Shown in pieces: positions 53,281-57,605 of a stretch of 64,000 nucleotides of DNA. The position numbers and the translations under genes are program-made. The DNA comes from a virus (lineage: Duplodnaviria; Caudoviricetes), in IMG/VR virus record IMGVR_UViG_3300036985_003045, one strand, 5' to 3'. The notes beneath the pieces were generated by a model, which did not search any database, was not told the DNA's origin, and saw only the letters and a list, made by a program, of their open reading frames with translations. Every line of letters begins with the position of its first letter. Position 1 is the stretch's first letter.

Positions 53281-53886
53281 ATGGCAAATATAAAAGAACC
53301 CACATTGTTAGATGTATTTGAGAAAAACAAATATAGTCTACCCCAAGCATCAAAGGCTAGCAAAAGTTGGTTTGATCAGCAGATATTGCTATTACATCAT
53401 CAACATATAAATGGAAGTAATGTATTAAAGACTGCTCCACAATTTACCTCGATAGGTAAAATAATGCCGGGAAAGTTATATTTGTACAGATATGATGCTA
53501 AACATAAATCGACATTACAATATTGGGATATGTTTCCTTTAGTATTTCCTTATGAGAAAACAAAGGATGGATTCTATGGTTTGAATTTTCATTATTTACC
53601 TTATCAATTAAGAATTAAACTTCTTGATAAGATGATGGTATTTGCAACTAATAAGAATATGGATGAAAATACTAGATTAAGATATTCTTGGCAATTGATA
53701 TCCGGTATATCGAAGTTTAAGTTTGCAGAACCATGTATTCATAGATATTTAAACTCGCATATACGTACTCAATGCAGAGAAATTACAGCCAACAATTGGG
53801 CAACTGCTATGATGTTACCAGTAGAAGGATTTGTAGGTGCTAACAAGGCTAAAGTTTGGCAAGAGTCAAAAAGGATGATGAATTAA
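53281..53886 (+). CDS. gp2: DNA end protector gp2
   Basis: YRYDAKHK..LQYWDMFPLVF, GLNFHYLP...R..LL, CIHRYL. Confidence 0.9.
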   Translation: MANIKEPTLLDVFEKNKYSLPQASKASKSWFDQQILLLHHQHINGSNVLKTAPQFTSIGKIMPGKLYLYRYDAKHKSTLQYWDMFPLVFPYEKTKDGFYGLNFHYLPYQLRIKLLDKMMVFATNKNMDENTRLRYSWQLISGISKFKFAEPCIHRYLNSHIRTQCREITANNWATAMMLPVEGFVGANKAKVWQESKRMMN

Positions 53887-54578
53887 TGAGTCTACTATCA
53901 GATTTTATATCGGAAGTAAAAGTATCTGGGTTAATGAGAACTGCACGATATTCAGTTATTATGCCATTAATTTTATCAGACACTAATGAAAACAAAGATC
54001 CAAAACTAGTTTCTATGTTTTGTGACCAAGTACAAATACCAGGATTAAATTATAATACTACTCCAAATCTAACATATGGTGAAACAAGAGAAGCACCTTA
54101 TCAAAGAATGTTTGATAACCTTTCTCTTTCATTTTATGTAGATAATGAAATGAAAGTAAAGAAATACTTTGATGATTGGCAATATAGTATACAAAATCCA
54201 GTTACAAGATCATTTAATTATTATGCAAATTATATAAAACCTATACAAATTGGTGTAGAAGATATTGCAAGTAAAACTAAATATATGGTTGAGTTAAGAG
54301 AATGCTATCCTAAAACAGTAGGTACTATTCAAATGGATTCAGCATCAAAGGACTTAATGAAACTATCAGTAACTTTAGCATATAAGTATTGGATACCGAT
54401 AGGTGGATATACATATGATGACACAGATTTATTAAATAAAACAAATGATGGATTATTTTCCGAAATTGCCGGCGTATTTAACGGAATTGCAAGTTCTCCT
54501 GTAGGAGGTTTACTAATGAATTATGGTTTAACCGGTTTACAAAATAAACTTACAACAATTGCTGGATATAACGCATAA
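53886..54578 (+). CDS. gp19-family tail-tube initiator (gp54-like); probable start at ATG 53886 rather than 53856
   Basis: GLMRTARYSV, FCDQVQIPG, YGETREAPY...F, FDDWQ, ECYPKTVG; ATG overlaps the gp2 stop. Confidence 0.75.
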   Translation: MSLLSDFISEVKVSGLMRTARYSVIMPLILSDTNENKDPKLVSMFCDQVQIPGLNYNTTPNLTYGETREAPYQRMFDNLSLSFYVDNEMKVKKYFDDWQYSIQNPVTRSFNYYANYIKPIQIGVEDIASKTKYMVELRECYPKTVGTIQMDSASKDLMKLSVTLAYKYWIPIGGYTYDDTDLLNKTNDGLFSEIAGVFNGIASSPVGGLLMNYGLTGLQNKLTTIAGYNA

Positions 54579-54586
54579 ATATTACT

Positions 54587-55021
54587 ATGAAAATGGATGA
54601 TAAATTATCAGAAATATTTGACTTGGAACCTATAGAATATACAAAGATTGCACCTCGTAATGATGATATAGTTCCTATTAAGCATGGAACTCAGGACGAA
54701 TATATCGAAAATGATTTCGATCACGTCCGCGGAAATATTAAGGAGTTGTTATCGACAGGGAGGTCGGCCCTTTATGATATGATCGAGGTAGCTAAACAAA
54801 GCGAACATCCTCGAGCATACGAAGTAGTTGGTACATTAATGAAGCAAGTTGCTGATATGAACCAACAATTGTTAGATGTACATGCACAGAAACAAAAACT
54901 GTCAGGTACAGAAAAGAAAAAAGAAGAACCCGCAAGTCAAGTTACAAACAACAATGCTATATTTGTTGGAAGTACTAACGACTTGGCAACAATGATTCAT
55001 AATATGCATAAAGGAGAATAA
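54587..55021 (+). CDS. gp16: Terminase small subunit gp16
   Basis: DFDHVRGNI..L...G..AL..M..VAKQSEHPRAYEVVGTLMK, TNNNAIFVGST.DL. Confidence 0.88.
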   Translation: MKMDDKLSEIFDLEPIEYTKIAPRNDDIVPIKHGTQDEYIENDFDHVRGNIKELLSTGRSALYDMIEVAKQSEHPRAYEVVGTLMKQVADMNQQLLDVHAQKQKLSGTEKKKEEPASQVTNNNAIFVGSTNDLATMIHNMHKGE

Positions 55022-55025
55022 TACA

Positions 55026-55739
55026 ATGGCATTGCCAGTTAATAGTACACCGATATATCAATTAACTATACCTTCAACAAATAAAGAAGTTAAGTATAGG
55101 TCATTTCTTGTAAAAGAAGAAAAGGCATTATTGATTGCTCAACAAAGTGAAGATCCAAATATAATGGTTAATACTTTGCAAGAAGTCATTAAGTCTTGTA
55201 TAAAAGATGATATTGATATTAATAAATTAGCAATGTTTGACCTTGAGTATATCTTTACTCAAATTAGGGCAAAGTCAGTAGGCGAAGAAGTTGAATTAGT
55301 TTTTAAATGTCAGCACTGTGATGATCCTAATGCCAAGGTAAAAGTTAAGTTTGATTTAACCCAACTTGAAGTAAAAAAAGATCCTACCCATACTAATAAA
55401 ATAGAGTTATTTAATAATGTAGGTATTGTATTAAAATACCCAAGTATTAATATAATTAAGAAATTAGAAGATATTAGTACAAATAATGTAGATGATATAT
55501 TTAAAATAATTATTGACTGTATTGATTACATTTATGATGATGAACAATTATATCATGCAACTGATACAACTCAAACAGAATTAAAAGAATTTTTAAATAA
55601 TTTAACAACAGAACAATTTGGCAAACTTCAGAAGTTCTTTGAAACTATGCCAAAGATTACAAAAGATATTGAATATACATGTCCTATATGTGGTGCCCAT
55701 AATGAAGCAACCTTGAGTGGTATACAATCTTTTTTCTAG
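55026..55739 (+). CDS. gp26: Baseplate hub assembly protein gp26
   Basis: MALP...P.Y.LTIPST...YRSFLVKEEKALLIA, FDLEYIFTQIRAKSVGE, CxxC pairs, FFETMPK, LSGIQSFF. Confidence 0.9.
   Translation: MALPVNSTPIYQLTIPSTNKEVKYRSFLVKEEKALLIAQQSEDPNIMVNTLQEVIKSCIKDDIDINKLAMFDLEYIFTQIRAKSVGEEVELVFKCQHCDDPNAKVKVKFDLTQLEVKKDPTHTNKIELFNNVGIVLKYPSINIIKKLEDISTNNVDDIFKIIIDCIDYIYDDEQLYHATDTTQTELKEFLNNLTTEQFGKLQKFFETMPKITKDIEYTCPICGAHNEATLSGIQSFF
55730..55736 (+). other. Candidate -1 programmed ribosomal frameshift site T TTT TTC
   Basis: X XXY YYZ heptamer on the last two gp26 codons; -1 frame is open into gp51. Confidence 0.6.
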
Positions 55740-55762
55740 TAAATCTCAGTCATGAATCATTG

Positions 55763-55924
55763 ATGAATTATTATAAAATGAATTTTGCTTTAATGCATCA
55801 CCACAAATATTCGTTGACTGAGATAGAAAATTTAATACCGTTTGAGAAAGAAATATATGTTGCTTTGTTAATAAACTATTTGGAAGAAGAAAAACAAAGG
55901 ATTCAGAGTAAACAAAATGGCTAA
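55763..55924 (+). CDS. gp51: Baseplate hub assembly catalyst gp51 (53 aa; not in the ORF track)
   Basis: Manual translation MNYYKMNFALMHHHKYSLTEIENLIPFEKEIYVALLINYLEEEKQRIQSKQNG. Confidence 0.82.
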   Translation: MNYYKMNFALMHHHKYSLTEIENLIPFEKEIYVALLINYLEEEKQRIQSKQNG

Positions 55925-57605
55925 TCGTCCTACACAAAGATCAATGCAAGATTTATTAGAGAAACAATTAGTTTCTCTCAATGAAATTCACAGTACTCTT
56001 GCCACTTCCAAACTGATTGAACTTGGACAATTAGTTGAAGAGAAGAAAGCTTTAGATGATGATAATATATTAGTAGATGAATTACGTGATATTCATCTTA
56101 TATCAAATGCTATTTTAGAGTCTTTAATAGAGATTAAAGATAAATTCTTAGCAATGCCTATCACAACCAATGAAGATAAGGCAGAAGCTGCAAAAGCGAA
56201 TGCTGCAATGCTTAAGGCATTACAAGATTTAGGCAAAGATAAAGATGAACCATTAAAGGATATTAAAGAAGGTTTATCTCTTGGTGGAATTATAGCTGGT
56301 ATTGGGATTGCTTTAGCTTCAATGGCAGGAGCAGTTTCAGGATTTGTCAAAAATTTAAAATTTTGGATTGATTTATTAACTCCTGAAAAACTATTCCAGA
56401 AATTTAAAAAGTTCGACAAAAATTTTGAAAAAGTAATTGCTGAAATAGTAAGTGGATTCAAATCAGTATTCTCAAAATCATTTAAATCTATATTCGAATC
56501 AAAACCATTACAATCATTTTTTGATACTTTTAATAAAATAATTGATTTTGTTAAAAAACCATTTGTAACAACATCACTAGATAAATTCAATAGATTTTTT
56601 GGTAATCAACGCAAGTCTTTATTAACTCGATTAATAGATCCTTTTATGGATGTTTTTAAAATTATAAAAGATTTAATATCTGGACCAGTAGGTAAAGTAA
56701 AAGGTATCTTCACAGGTATTGGAGATGCTCTTGGTACATTTACAAAAATGTTTAAGGGTGTATTTGGTATAGTTAGTAAATTATTCTTTGTTGTTGGTAT
56801 ACTTATGACTGCATGGGATACTGTTAAAGGTGCTATTGAAGGATATGAACAAGGTGGTATAATTGGAGCTATACAAGGCGCAGTAGAGGGACTTTTCAAA
56901 TCATTATTTGTTGCTCCTTTAGATATGTTACGTGAGGCTGTTGCTTGGATTGCTGGTAAACTTGGTTTTGAAAATGTACAAAAAGAATTAGAATCATTTA
57001 CTGTTAATGATGTATTTGAGGATATAATGGATTCTTTCTATGCTGTTATAGATTTAGTTAGTAATACATTAAAAAGTGTTGCTAACGGCTTTTTAACTTT
57101 AGTTAGTGATTTCTATGGACTGTTTGCTGGACTTGGTATTCCAGAGGTTACAATTCCATTACCTGATGTAATGGGCGGGGATAAAAAAATAGGACCTTTT
57201 TATCCATATAAAGCAATGTCTGAAGATATTGCATCTATGAAAATGGAAGTAGCAGAACCTAAAACTTTTAAAGAATTAAAATCAGATAGAAAAGCAAAAC
57301 GGGTTGAAGTAGAAAAAGTAAAAAATGAAAAAGATCTAGAAGAAAAACGTAAAGAAATTAATGCAAATATTTGGTCAAATGCAGAAGCAATAACACCTAA
57401 TTCGGCAAATATGGTAGCAGCAAAAACAACTGCTACAGAATCTGCTAGAGAAGATGCTACACAATCAGCAGGAAATACTGTGGTATCTGCACCTACAGTA
57501 AATACATCCAATAGCACAGTTAATAGTACTGCAGTTAGATTACCTGTAAGAAGTTCAGATAGTACATCATCTAGATACATCTCAAGTTGCTACGCAATTA
57601 ATTAA
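55917..57605 (+). CDS. Probable tape measure / baseplate hub protein (gp29-like)
   Basis: 562 aa, coiled-coil N-terminus, Phe/Gly-periodic helical middle, N/T/S-rich C-terminus; follows gp26-gp51. Confidence 0.6.
   Translation: MANRPTQRSMQDLLEKQLVSLNEIHSTLATSKLIELGQLVEEKKALDDDNILVDELRDIHLISNAILESLIEIKDKFLAMPITTNEDKAEAAKANAAMLKALQDLGKDKDEPLKDIKEGLSLGGIIAGIGIALASMAGAVSGFVKNLKFWIDLLTPEKLFQKFKKFDKNFEKVIAEIVSGFKSVFSKSFKSIFESKPLQSFFDTFNKIIDFVKKPFVTTSLDKFNRFFGNQRKSLLTRLIDPFMDVFKIIKDLISGPVGKVKGIFTGIGDALGTFTKMFKGVFGIVSKLFFVVGILMTAWDTVKGAIEGYEQGGIIGAIQGAVEGLFKSLFVAPLDMLREAVAWIAGKLGFENVQKELESFTVNDVFEDIMDSFYAVIDLVSNTLKSVANGFLTLVSDFYGLFAGLGIPEVTIPLPDVMGGDKKIGPFYPYKAMSEDIASMKMEVAEPKTFKELKSDRKAKRVEVEKVKNEKDLEEKRKEINANIWSNAEAITPNSANMVAAKTTATESAREDATQSAGNTVVSAPTVNTSNSTVNSTAVRLPVRSSDSTSSRYISSCYAIN

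What the first reader, a model, noticed from the sequence alone, without database searches (positions are those of the whole stretch)
55706..55924. Candidate -1 programmed frameshift fusing gp26 to gp51, like lambda G/GT tail chaperones
Seen: gp26 ends CAA TCT TTT TTC TAG, which puts a canonical X XXY YYZ heptamer (T TTT TTC, 55730-55736) on its last two codons. The -1 frame is open from 55706 and reads F-L-V-N-L-S-H-E-S-L straight into the gp51 ATG at 55763. No clear SD precedes that ATG. The next gene is the tape-measure-like gp29. The fusion would be about 299 aa. Established: many long-tailed phages make a G/GT chaperone pair by -1 frameshift immediately upstream of the tape measure gene; to my knowledge T4 gp26/gp51 are described as separate proteins. 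Inference: gp26/gp51 here are a frameshifted tail-assembly chaperone pair.
Basis: partly seen in the sequence, partly recalled or inferred. Interest (0 to 1): 0.8.

Follow-up and report, generated by a model that had tools for sequence, protein, structure and literature searches.

The report
Frameshift joining phage gp26 to gp51
This freshwater T4-like phage very probably makes a short and a long form of its tail-assembly chaperone from one gene, by ribosomes slipping back one base on TTTTTTC; the signal is real and conserved in every relative examined, but the idea was published for T4-like phages in 2022.

Summary
gp26 (55026-55739, Pfam PF12322) ends TCT TTT TTC TAG. That places T_TTT_TTC (55730-55736) in X_XXY_YYZ phase. 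The -1 frame is open from 55706 into the 53-codon 'gp51' ORF, and a tape-measure-like gene follows.

The signal is not chance. In 96 related loci (77 distinct junctions, including cyanophages, pelagiphage, Vibrio, Pseudomonas and rhizobial phages):
- the six T's are invariant and in phase, and only Z varies;
- gp51 is always in the -1 frame;
- codon periodicity switches frame at the heptamer;
- there is no conserved start codon.

The 299-aa fusion is colinear with full-length T4 gp51, which is itself a gp26 paralogue plus a C-terminal extension. T4 has two PF12322 genes and a non-slippery FF. Four complete genomes of the frameshift type have one each.

The window's clade has a covarying 14-bp stem 6 nt after the heptamer. 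Most other clades instead have GGAGG 10 nt upstream. The predicted gp26 N-domain resembles tail assembly chaperones such as that of HK97.

Vladimirov, Gautam & Davidson (Virology 2022) identified gp26/gp51 as the short and long chaperones of T4-like phages. This scan also found the same junction earlier on other genomes. Public records still annotate two separate genes. No fusion protein has been observed here.

The parts
55026..55739 (+). gp26, the short chaperone form (TAC-N), 237 aa, with Cys4 zinc-ribbon motifs (CxxC at residues 95-98 and 222-225)
   Evidence: PF12322 T4_baseplate, E 7e-65. phrog_150 'baseplate hub', E 2e-70. An AAGGAG Shine-Dalgarno lies before the ATG.
55730..55736 (+). 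Slippery heptamer T_TTT_TTC (X_XXY_YYZ) on the last two sense codons of gp26
   Evidence: Positions 1-6 are invariant in 77 of 77 distinct junctions. Position 7 is T in 47, C in 29 and A in 1.
55737..55739 (+). 0-frame stop codon TAG immediately 3' of the heptamer; it also forms the first half of the 6-nt spacer (55737-55742)
   Evidence: In the relatives the stop lies 0-9 codons after the heptamer.
55743..55756 (+). 5' arm of a long-range stem, a candidate frameshift stimulator, starting 6 nt after the heptamer
   Evidence: The RNA fold of 55737-55830 gives -21.2 kcal/mol, z -3.56, with 0 of 200 shuffles as stable. Across 14 clade members 91% of cells are paired, against 25-43% when the partners are slid. 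Five pairs show compensatory changes, and 0 of 500 shuffles reach the observed covariation.
55810..55824 (+). 3' arm of the same stem, with one bulged T at 55814
55736..55924 (+). -1 frame extension (TAC-C, the 'gp51' part): 62 codons plus TAA, read after the slip. It includes the ORF usually annotated as gp51 (ATG 55763).
   Evidence: phrog_634 'baseplate hub assembly catalyst', E 6e-25, and phrog_150 positions 243-276 of 282. It aligns with T4 gp51 residues 202-249.
55917..57605 (+). Tape-measure-like gene (562 aa). Its ATG overlaps the gp51 stop (ATGGCTAA).
   Evidence: phrog_58, phrog_991 and phrog_305 tape-measure families, E 9e-8 to 4e-3. BLASTP to T4 gp29 is not significant.
53856..54578 (+). 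Tail tube protein (gp19-like), upstream in the same gene string
   Evidence: PF23849 Phage_TTP_2, E 2e-8; phrog_45, E 8e-34.

Best explanation
gp26 and 'gp51' are one recoded gene. Most ribosomes stop at TAG 55737 and make the 237-aa short form (gp26, TAC-N). A minority slip back one base while the two tRNA-Phe sit on UUU UUC of U_UUU_UUC. They then read CUA GUA AAU... in the -1 frame and make a 299-aa long form (TAC-NC) that carries the gp51 domain at its C-terminus. This long form is the equivalent of full-length T4 gp51.

The adjacent stop codon and a 14-bp long-range stem starting 6 nt downstream probably raise the slip rate in this clade. Other clades instead have a GGAGG 10 nt upstream, as in dnaX.

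By analogy with lambda G/GT and T4 genetics, the two forms would act together as assembly chaperones for the tape-measure/hub complex and would not end up in the virion.

Shown: the sequence anatomy, its conservation, the switch of coding frame at the heptamer, colinearity with T4 gp51, stem covariation, and a predicted chaperone-like fold.
Inferred: that slipping occurs, its rate, the role of the stem, and the chaperone function.
For: (1) Anatomy is as described.

(2) All 96 loci keep TTTTTT in phase, with gp51 in the -1 frame. These are 80 IMG/VR loci, 15 named phages and metagenome contigs, with gp26 identity down to about 20-55%.

(3) Selection acts at the nucleotide level.
- The wobble base X is T in 77/77 junctions, across five different codons for four amino acids.
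- The first Phe codon is TTT in 77/77, against a background of 65%. Z is free to vary.
- Column entropy is 0 at X, against 1.3-1.95 bits at neighbouring wobble sites.

(4) Codon periodicity switches from the 0 frame to the -1 frame exactly at the heptamer. Mean entropy by codon position is 0.91/0.64/1.36 for +9..+47.

(5) Independent initiation has no conserved start.
- 74/77 junctions have no ATG, GTG or TTG in the -1 frame upstream of the heptamer.
- In 5 junctions a -1 stop directly abuts the T run.
- The first ATG is 16 codons into the conserved region in 48/77.

(6) Homology with T4 gp51.
- T4 gp51 matches PF12322 over residues 1-201 (E 4e-52) and phrog_150 over residues 3-248.
- The fusion matches phrog_150 over residues 1-282 (E 2e-79).
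- The fusion aligns to T4 gp51 straight across the junction.

(7) T4 has 2 PF12322 genes. P-SSM2, Melnitz-2, phiN3 and Vibrio D482 have 1 each.

(8) T4 gp26 keeps FF but encodes it as GAG TTC TTT, which is not slippery.

(9) The stem shows covariation.

(10) Fold searches point to tail assembly chaperones.
- The VIA wide search puts 3fgx (Z 8.1), the HK97 tail assembly chaperone 2ob9 (Z 7.7) and YqbN 3klu (Z 6.6) on top; the next hit scores 4.9.
- Foldseek on the N-domain model returns tail-assembly-chaperone entries in PDB, BFVD and AFDB.

(11) T4 gp26 and gp51 are hub assembly chaperones, and gp51 is absent from the particle (PMC3004832).
Against: - No protein, ribosome-profiling or reporter data exist for this phage or, as far as I could find, for any relative, so the fusion is inferred.
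- The window has an in-frame ATG at 55763, so a free 53-aa gp51 could also be made.
- A run of U's could also shift frame by RNA polymerase slippage, which would give the same protein.
- The stem is not conserved outside the window's clade, and its arms lie in coding sequence.
- The fold matches have moderate scores (Z under about 8; Foldseek PDB E 0.3-0.6).
- The model of the junction and the gp51 part has low confidence (pLDDT 41-67).
Confidence: 0.85

Rival explanations
1. Transcriptional slippage. RNA polymerase adds one extra U in the T run, so a fraction of mRNAs encode the same 299-aa fusion in a single frame. The ribosome does not slip.
For: Most freshwater relatives have a run of 8 T's (T + TTT TTT + T of the stop), a length at which polymerase slippage becomes plausible (general knowledge). 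The protein product would be identical, so the homology evidence does not discriminate.
Against: The window and all cyanophage-type loci have only 6 T's followed by C (29/77 junctions), which is short for polymerase slippage. What is invariant is exactly positions 1-6 of X_XXY_YYZ in phase, with Z free. That is the ribosomal rule, not a length rule. Stimulators typical of ribosomal shifting flank the site: a stem 6 nt downstream and GGAGG 10 nt upstream. The one RNA-library contig across the run has T6, but contigs hide minor variants.
Confidence: 0.08
2. There is no fusion. gp51 is a free 53-54 aa protein started at ATG 55763 or TTG 55760, perhaps by re-initiation after the gp26 stop. The T run merely encodes the conserved Phe-Phe.
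For: The window has an in-frame ATG 24 nt after the gp26 stop. All 15 public records examined annotate two genes or leave gp51 unannotated.
Against: No Shine-Dalgarno precedes the ATG. The ATG position is not conserved: that residue is M, S, F, Y, G, E, T, A, H, V, L, R or Q in relatives. In 48/77 junctions the first ATG lies 16 codons inside the conserved coding region. The 10 codons before the window's ATG are under -1 frame purifying selection and align with internal residues of T4 gp51. The invariant wobble T at X is unexplained by Phe-Phe coding. T4 encodes the same FF as TTC TTT.
Confidence: 0.05
3. Artefact or decay: a sequencing or assembly indel in a homopolymer, or a broken fused gene.
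For: Homopolymer runs are error-prone in some sequencing chemistries.
Against: The same arrangement is seen in 96 loci from independent studies and in isolate genomes. The T6 run is identical in three DNA metagenomes. None of the top 120 of 4092 homologues is an in-frame fusion.
Confidence: 0.01

Closest known systems
T4-like phage tail assembly chaperones TAC-N (gp26) and TAC-NC (gp51): Vladimirov, Gautam & Davidson, Virology 2022, 566:9-15 (PMID 34826709)
   Same: Same protein family (PF12322) and same short/long logic. Citing papers report that the study found poly-T -1 slippery signals in the TAC-N genes of T4-like phages. They also report that some T4-like phages instead carry a short gene plus a separate long fused gene (PMC12846349; PMC10274946). 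My results reproduce both points.
   Different: I could not read the paper itself, so I cannot say whether it covers this freshwater clade, the covarying downstream stem, or the GGAGG 10 nt upstream. This window is an uncultured, unannotated member.
Lambda gpG/gpGT and the conserved -1 frameshift of tail assembly chaperone genes (Levin, Hendrix & Casjens 1993; Xu, Hendrix & Duda 2004)
   Same: There are two overlapping ORFs just upstream of the tape measure gene. A slippery heptamer lies near the end of the first ORF. The long form shares the whole short form. The predicted N-domain fold is like the HK97 chaperone 2ob9.
   Different: There is no sequence-level match to any Pfam chaperone family. 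gp26 is about twice the size of gpG and has an extra Cys4 zinc-ribbon domain. The heptamer is U_UUU_UUC rather than G_GGA_AAG. The small terminase gene sits between the tube gene and gp26.
T4 gp26 and gp51 (hub assembly chaperones; Leiman et al. 2010, PMC3004832)
   Same: Homologous proteins. The fusion is colinear with T4 gp51, including across the junction.
   Different: In T4 the two forms are separate, divergently transcribed paralogous genes. The FF of T4 gp26 is encoded by the non-slippery TTC TTT.
E. coli dnaX -1 frameshift (upstream Shine-Dalgarno-like element plus downstream stem-loop)
   Same: The stimulator layout is the same. A structure starts 6 nt 3' of the heptamer in the window's clade. 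GGAGG lies 10 nt 5' of the heptamer in 50 of 71 relatives, and GAG is used at that Glu in 50 of 54 cases against a 27% background.
   Different: The window itself lacks the upstream element (it reads TTG AGT GGT). The slippery sequence is different and the gene is unrelated.

Membership tests
G/GT-type tail assembly chaperone pair made by -1 frameshift | Second ORF in the -1 frame, overlapping the 3' end of the first ORF, with the -1 frame open across the junction | tested here: met
   The -1 frame is open 55706-55921, and the same holds in 96 of 96 loci.
G/GT-type tail assembly chaperone pair made by -1 frameshift | X_XXY_YYZ slippery heptamer in 0-frame phase, conserved in relatives | tested here: met
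   T_TTT_TTC at 55730-55736. Positions 1-6 are invariant in 77 distinct junctions.
G/GT-type tail assembly chaperone pair made by -1 frameshift | Located between the tail tube gene and the tape measure gene | tested here: met
   The order is tube (53856-54578), small terminase-like (54587-55021), gp26, gp51, tape-measure-like (55917-57605). The tape-measure call rests on PHROG hits only (E 9e-8).
G/GT-type tail assembly chaperone pair made by -1 frameshift | Chaperone (gpG-like) sequence family or fold | tested here: inconclusive
   No Pfam chaperone family matches. At fold level, the HK97 chaperone 2ob9 scores Z 7.7, and 3fgx and 3klu are also top hits. Foldseek PDB gives E 0.3-0.6. BFVD and AFDB entries named tail assembly chaperone give TM 0.5-0.6, E 6e-3 to 7e-2. 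The results are consistent but the scores are moderate.
G/GT-type tail assembly chaperone pair made by -1 frameshift | Long fusion product made at a low ratio; both forms absent from virions; binding to the tape measure and tube | not testable with these tools
   This needs mass spectrometry or reporter and binding assays. For T4, gp51 is reported absent from the particle (PMC3004832).
T4 gp26/gp51 family (PF12322; TAC-N/TAC-NC of T4-like phages) | PF12322 domain above the gathering score | tested here: met
   E 7e-65, 219 bits against a cut-off of 24.5.
T4 gp26/gp51 family (PF12322; TAC-N/TAC-NC of T4-like phages) | Long form = PF12322 body plus a C-terminal extension homologous to the T4 gp51 C-terminus | tested here: met
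   The fusion matches phrog_150 over residues 1-282 (E 2e-79) and phrog_634 over residues 201-298. BLASTP to T4 gp51 runs across the junction, E 4e-7.
T4 gp26/gp51 family (PF12322; TAC-N/TAC-NC of T4-like phages) | One PF12322 gene where the frameshift is used, two where it is not | tested here: met
   T4 has 2 copies. P-SSM2, Melnitz-2, phiN3 and Vibrio D482 have 1 each. The window has 1. The window's whole genome is not held.
dnaX-like stimulators of -1 frameshifting | Shine-Dalgarno-like element about 10 nt upstream of the heptamer | tested here: not met
   The window reads TTG AGT GGT at that place. It is present in 50 of 71 relatives from other clades.
dnaX-like stimulators of -1 frameshifting | Stable RNA structure 5-9 nt downstream of the heptamer | tested here: met
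   The stem 55743-55756 / 55810-55824 has z -3.56 and shows covariation. Its function is inferred.

The most novel reading that the evidence does not exclude
Different clades of T4-like phages tune the same frameshift with interchangeable stimulators. Most use an upstream anti-Shine-Dalgarno-pairing GGAGG 10 nt before the heptamer. The window's freshwater clade has lost this element. It uses instead a 14-bp long-range stem, with a stop codon abutting the heptamer, that encloses the first 20 or so codons of the gp51 part. If the 2022 paper did not describe these elements, this would be a new and testable layer of regulation of the short:long chaperone ratio.
Probability: 0.35. Interest if true: 0.45.

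Novelty: new member of a known kind. Interest (0 to 1): 0.3.

Why it matters
The finding closes a long-standing apparent exception: T4-like phages do have the near-universal two-form tail assembly chaperone, and most of them make it by frameshifting. That point was already made in print in 2022. The practical value here is for annotation. All 15 GenBank/RefSeq records I inspected list gp26 and a tiny 'baseplate hub assembly catalyst' as separate genes, or miss the second one. About 540 phage records carry this junction. The comparison also offers natural material for studying how -1 frameshift stimulators are exchanged during evolution.

Tried and rejected
gp26 plus the tape-measure-like protein gave no verdict, which is no evidence either way.
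- Structure and sequence searches that found nothing. Foldseek of the full-length model against PDB gave nothing significant. A profile search of the N-domain against PDB sequences gave nothing. BLASTP of the 562-aa ORF against T4 gp29 was not significant (E 0.12), so the tape-measure assignment rests on PHROGs, size and position.
- Own genome. The window's own assembly is not held, so the PF12322 copy number could be checked only in the window and in relatives.
- Literature. Direct searches for gp26/gp51 plus frameshift found no paper. The 2022 paper surfaced only through an earlier scan note and citing papers, and it is not readable here.
- Stem in the wider set. A consensus fold over all 71 junctions gave no common structure; the stem is specific to one clade.
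- Sequencing reads. Read laying used assembler contigs only, so it cannot exclude a minor U7 transcript.

Full report
OBSERVATION. The window is 32% GC and its best DNA holders are lake and sediment metagenomes. It carries T4-like late genes in one string. The order is a tail tube gene (53856-54578), a small-terminase-like gene (54587-55021) and gp26 (55026-55739). A short ORF follows (ATG 55763 to TAA 55924), then a 562-aa tape-measure-like gene (55917-57605).

gp26 ends GGT ATA CAA TCT TTT TTC TAG. The heptamer T_TTT_TTC therefore lies at 55730-55736 in correct X_XXY_YYZ phase. The -1 frame is open from 55706 and reads FFLVNLSHESLMNYYK... into the short ORF. No AGGA, GGAG or GAGG precedes ATG 55763, whereas gp26 itself has AAGGAG. 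The fusion would be 299 aa.

IS IT CHANCE? T runs of 6 or more are common here (47 on this strand), so the run alone proves little. I therefore collected relatives:
- 80 IMG/VR loci with gp26 identity of 54-97%;
- six metagenome contigs;
- 15 named phages: P-SSM2, P-SSM4, S-RSM4, S-WAM1, S-SRM01, S-H34, S-SZBM1, ACG-2014d, Pelagibacter phage Mosig, Methylophilales phage Melnitz-2, Pseudomonas phage Astolliot, Sinorhizobium phiN3, Rhizobium RHph_I1_18, Vibrio D482 and Paraglaciecola GD1.

In all 96 loci (77 distinct junctions) the gp51 homologue is in the -1 frame. A TTTTTT sits in the same phase 0-9 codons before the gp26 stop.

The pattern of invariance is the ribosomal heptamer rule. The wobble base X is T in 77/77 junctions, although the codon varies (AGT, TCT, AAT, GAT, GCT). 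The first Phe codon is TTT in 77/77, against a 65% background. Z is T, C or A. Column entropy at X is 0, against 1.3-1.95 bits at neighbouring wobble sites.

Codon periodicity switches from the gp26 frame to the -1 frame exactly at the heptamer. A peptide FF-[L/R]-[V/I]-x-L-x-H-x-x-L is conserved before the position of the window's ATG.

That ATG is not conserved:
- in 48/77 junctions the first ATG lies 16 codons into the conserved region;
- in 74/77 no start codon exists in the -1 frame upstream of the heptamer;
- in five junctions a -1 stop abuts the T run.

Gene callers often leave this stretch uncalled, or start at the internal Met.

HOMOLOGY ARGUMENT. In T4, genes 26 and 51 are separate and divergent. 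T4 gp51 (249 aa) matches the gp26 family PF12322 over residues 1-201 (E 4e-52) and phrog_150 over nearly its whole length. It is therefore a gp26 paralogue with a C-terminal extension of about 48 aa.

The window's short ORF matches that extension: phrog_634, and phrog_150 positions 243-276. The -1 fusion matches phrog_150 end to end (E 2e-79). It also aligns with T4 gp51 straight across the junction.

Complete genomes behave in complementary fashion. T4 has two PF12322 genes, while P-SSM2, Melnitz-2, phiN3 and Vibrio D482 have one each. T4 gp26 still ends ...KEFFELL but encodes FF as GAG TTC TTT, which is not slippery. None of the top 120 of 4092 homologues of the fusion is an in-frame fusion. 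T4-type full-length gp51 occurs in about 1380 phage records, and the short -1 type in about 540.

STIMULATORS. In the window, a stem (55743-55756 with 55810-55824, one bulge) begins 6 nt after the heptamer. The 94-nt fold has z -3.56. Across 14 members of the window's clade, 91% of cells are paired, against 25-43% when the partners are slid. Five pairs show compensatory double changes, and 0 of 500 shuffles reach the observed covariation. The stem is absent from the wider set.

Most other clades instead carry GGAGG or GAGG ending 10 nt before the heptamer (50 of 71). The Glu codon there is GAG in 50 of 54 cases, against a 27% background, and the preceding Leu codon ends in G in 73%, against 28%. 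Junctions without this motif have more stable downstream folds: median z -3.15 against -0.7. That comparison is not corrected for relatedness. The stop codon directly after the heptamer may also help; this rests on the general 'shifty stop' literature, not on a test here.

RIBOSOME OR POLYMERASE? An extra U added by RNA polymerase would give the same protein. I favour ribosomal slipping for three reasons:
- 29/77 junctions, including this one, have only T6 followed by C;
- the invariant part is exactly positions 1-6 in phase;
- the flanking elements are those known to act on ribosomes.

Contigs from three DNA runs and one RNA library all show T6, but contigs cannot reveal minor species.

FUNCTION. 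An AlphaFold model of the fusion (pLDDT 82, low at the junction and in the gp51 part) was searched against about 48,000 solved chains. The best matches all fall on residues 1-94: 3fgx (Z 8.1), the HK97 tail assembly chaperone 2ob9 (Z 7.7) and YqbN 3klu (Z 6.6). The next hit scores 4.9.

A separate N-domain model again ranks 2ob9, 5ir0 and 3fgx first in PDB, but weakly (E 0.3-0.6). In BFVD and AFDB it finds entries named tail assembly chaperone, XkdN-like, or gpE/gp41/gp14, with TM 0.5-0.6. These scores are moderate but consistent.

T4 literature lists gp26 and gp51 as hub assembly chaperones, with gp51 absent from the particle (PMC3004832). The G/GT-like reading therefore fits in mechanism, in gene position and probably in ancestry. 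Binding to the tape measure is inferred only.

IS IT KNOWN? My direct literature searches found nothing. The paper is not held here, but two citing papers confirm its content:
- short TAC-N and long TAC-NC forms, and poly-T -1 slippery signals in the TAC-N genes of T4-like phages (PMC12846349);
- some T4-like phages carry a short gene plus a separate fused long gene instead of frameshifting (PMC10274946).

The core idea is thus published. This scan has also met the same junction repeatedly on other genomes. Public records still annotate two genes, apart from hints such as 'tape measure protein assembly chaperone' for gp51 of Acinetobacter phage Berthold.

VERDICT. It is a new, unannotated member of a known kind. 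The clade-specific stem and the upstream GGAGG may be new details, but I cannot check them against the 2022 paper.

Noticed in passing
window 55917-55924: The ATG of the tape-measure-like gene overlaps the stop of the gp51 frame (ATGGCTAA). This suggests translational coupling of the tape measure to the -1 frame product as well as to whatever reads through this stretch.
   Followed up: no
L099, L102, L103, L104 (gene tables); L093, L095: Gene callers and GenBank submitters often leave the gp51 stretch as an 'intergenic' gap of about 175 nt, or start it at an internal Met (48 aa in L100 and L101). This is consistent with it having no start of its own.
   Followed up: partly
L102:2091-2921 (minus strand): In one relative with 75% gp26 identity, a 276-aa gene on the opposite strand, with no Pfam hit, is inserted between the gp51 part and the tape-measure gene. 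That relative also lacks the downstream stem.
   Followed up: no
L081:3806-4429 (T4 gp26); T4 gp26 weakly matches phrog_1140 'baseplate hub distal subunit' (gp28; E 9e-4). The N-domain model also hits a 103-aa 'putative baseplate hub distal subunit' in BFVD. gp28 may therefore share the chaperone-like N-domain.
   Followed up: no
rank 9, ranks 2 and 5 (PDB 5ir0): ORF19 of the Vibrio cholerae PICI-like element (unknown function) ranks among the best structural matches, next to the HK97 tail assembly chaperone. It may be a satellite-encoded chaperone-like protein.
   Followed up: no
The piece may therefore hold two T4-like genomes or a duplicated tail module. The assembly is not held, so I could not check.
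   Followed up: no
window 53281-53886 and 53856-54578: The gp2-like ORF (PF26869 in relatives) and the tail tube ORF as listed (TTG start) overlap by 31 nt. The true tube start is probably a later codon.
   Followed up: no
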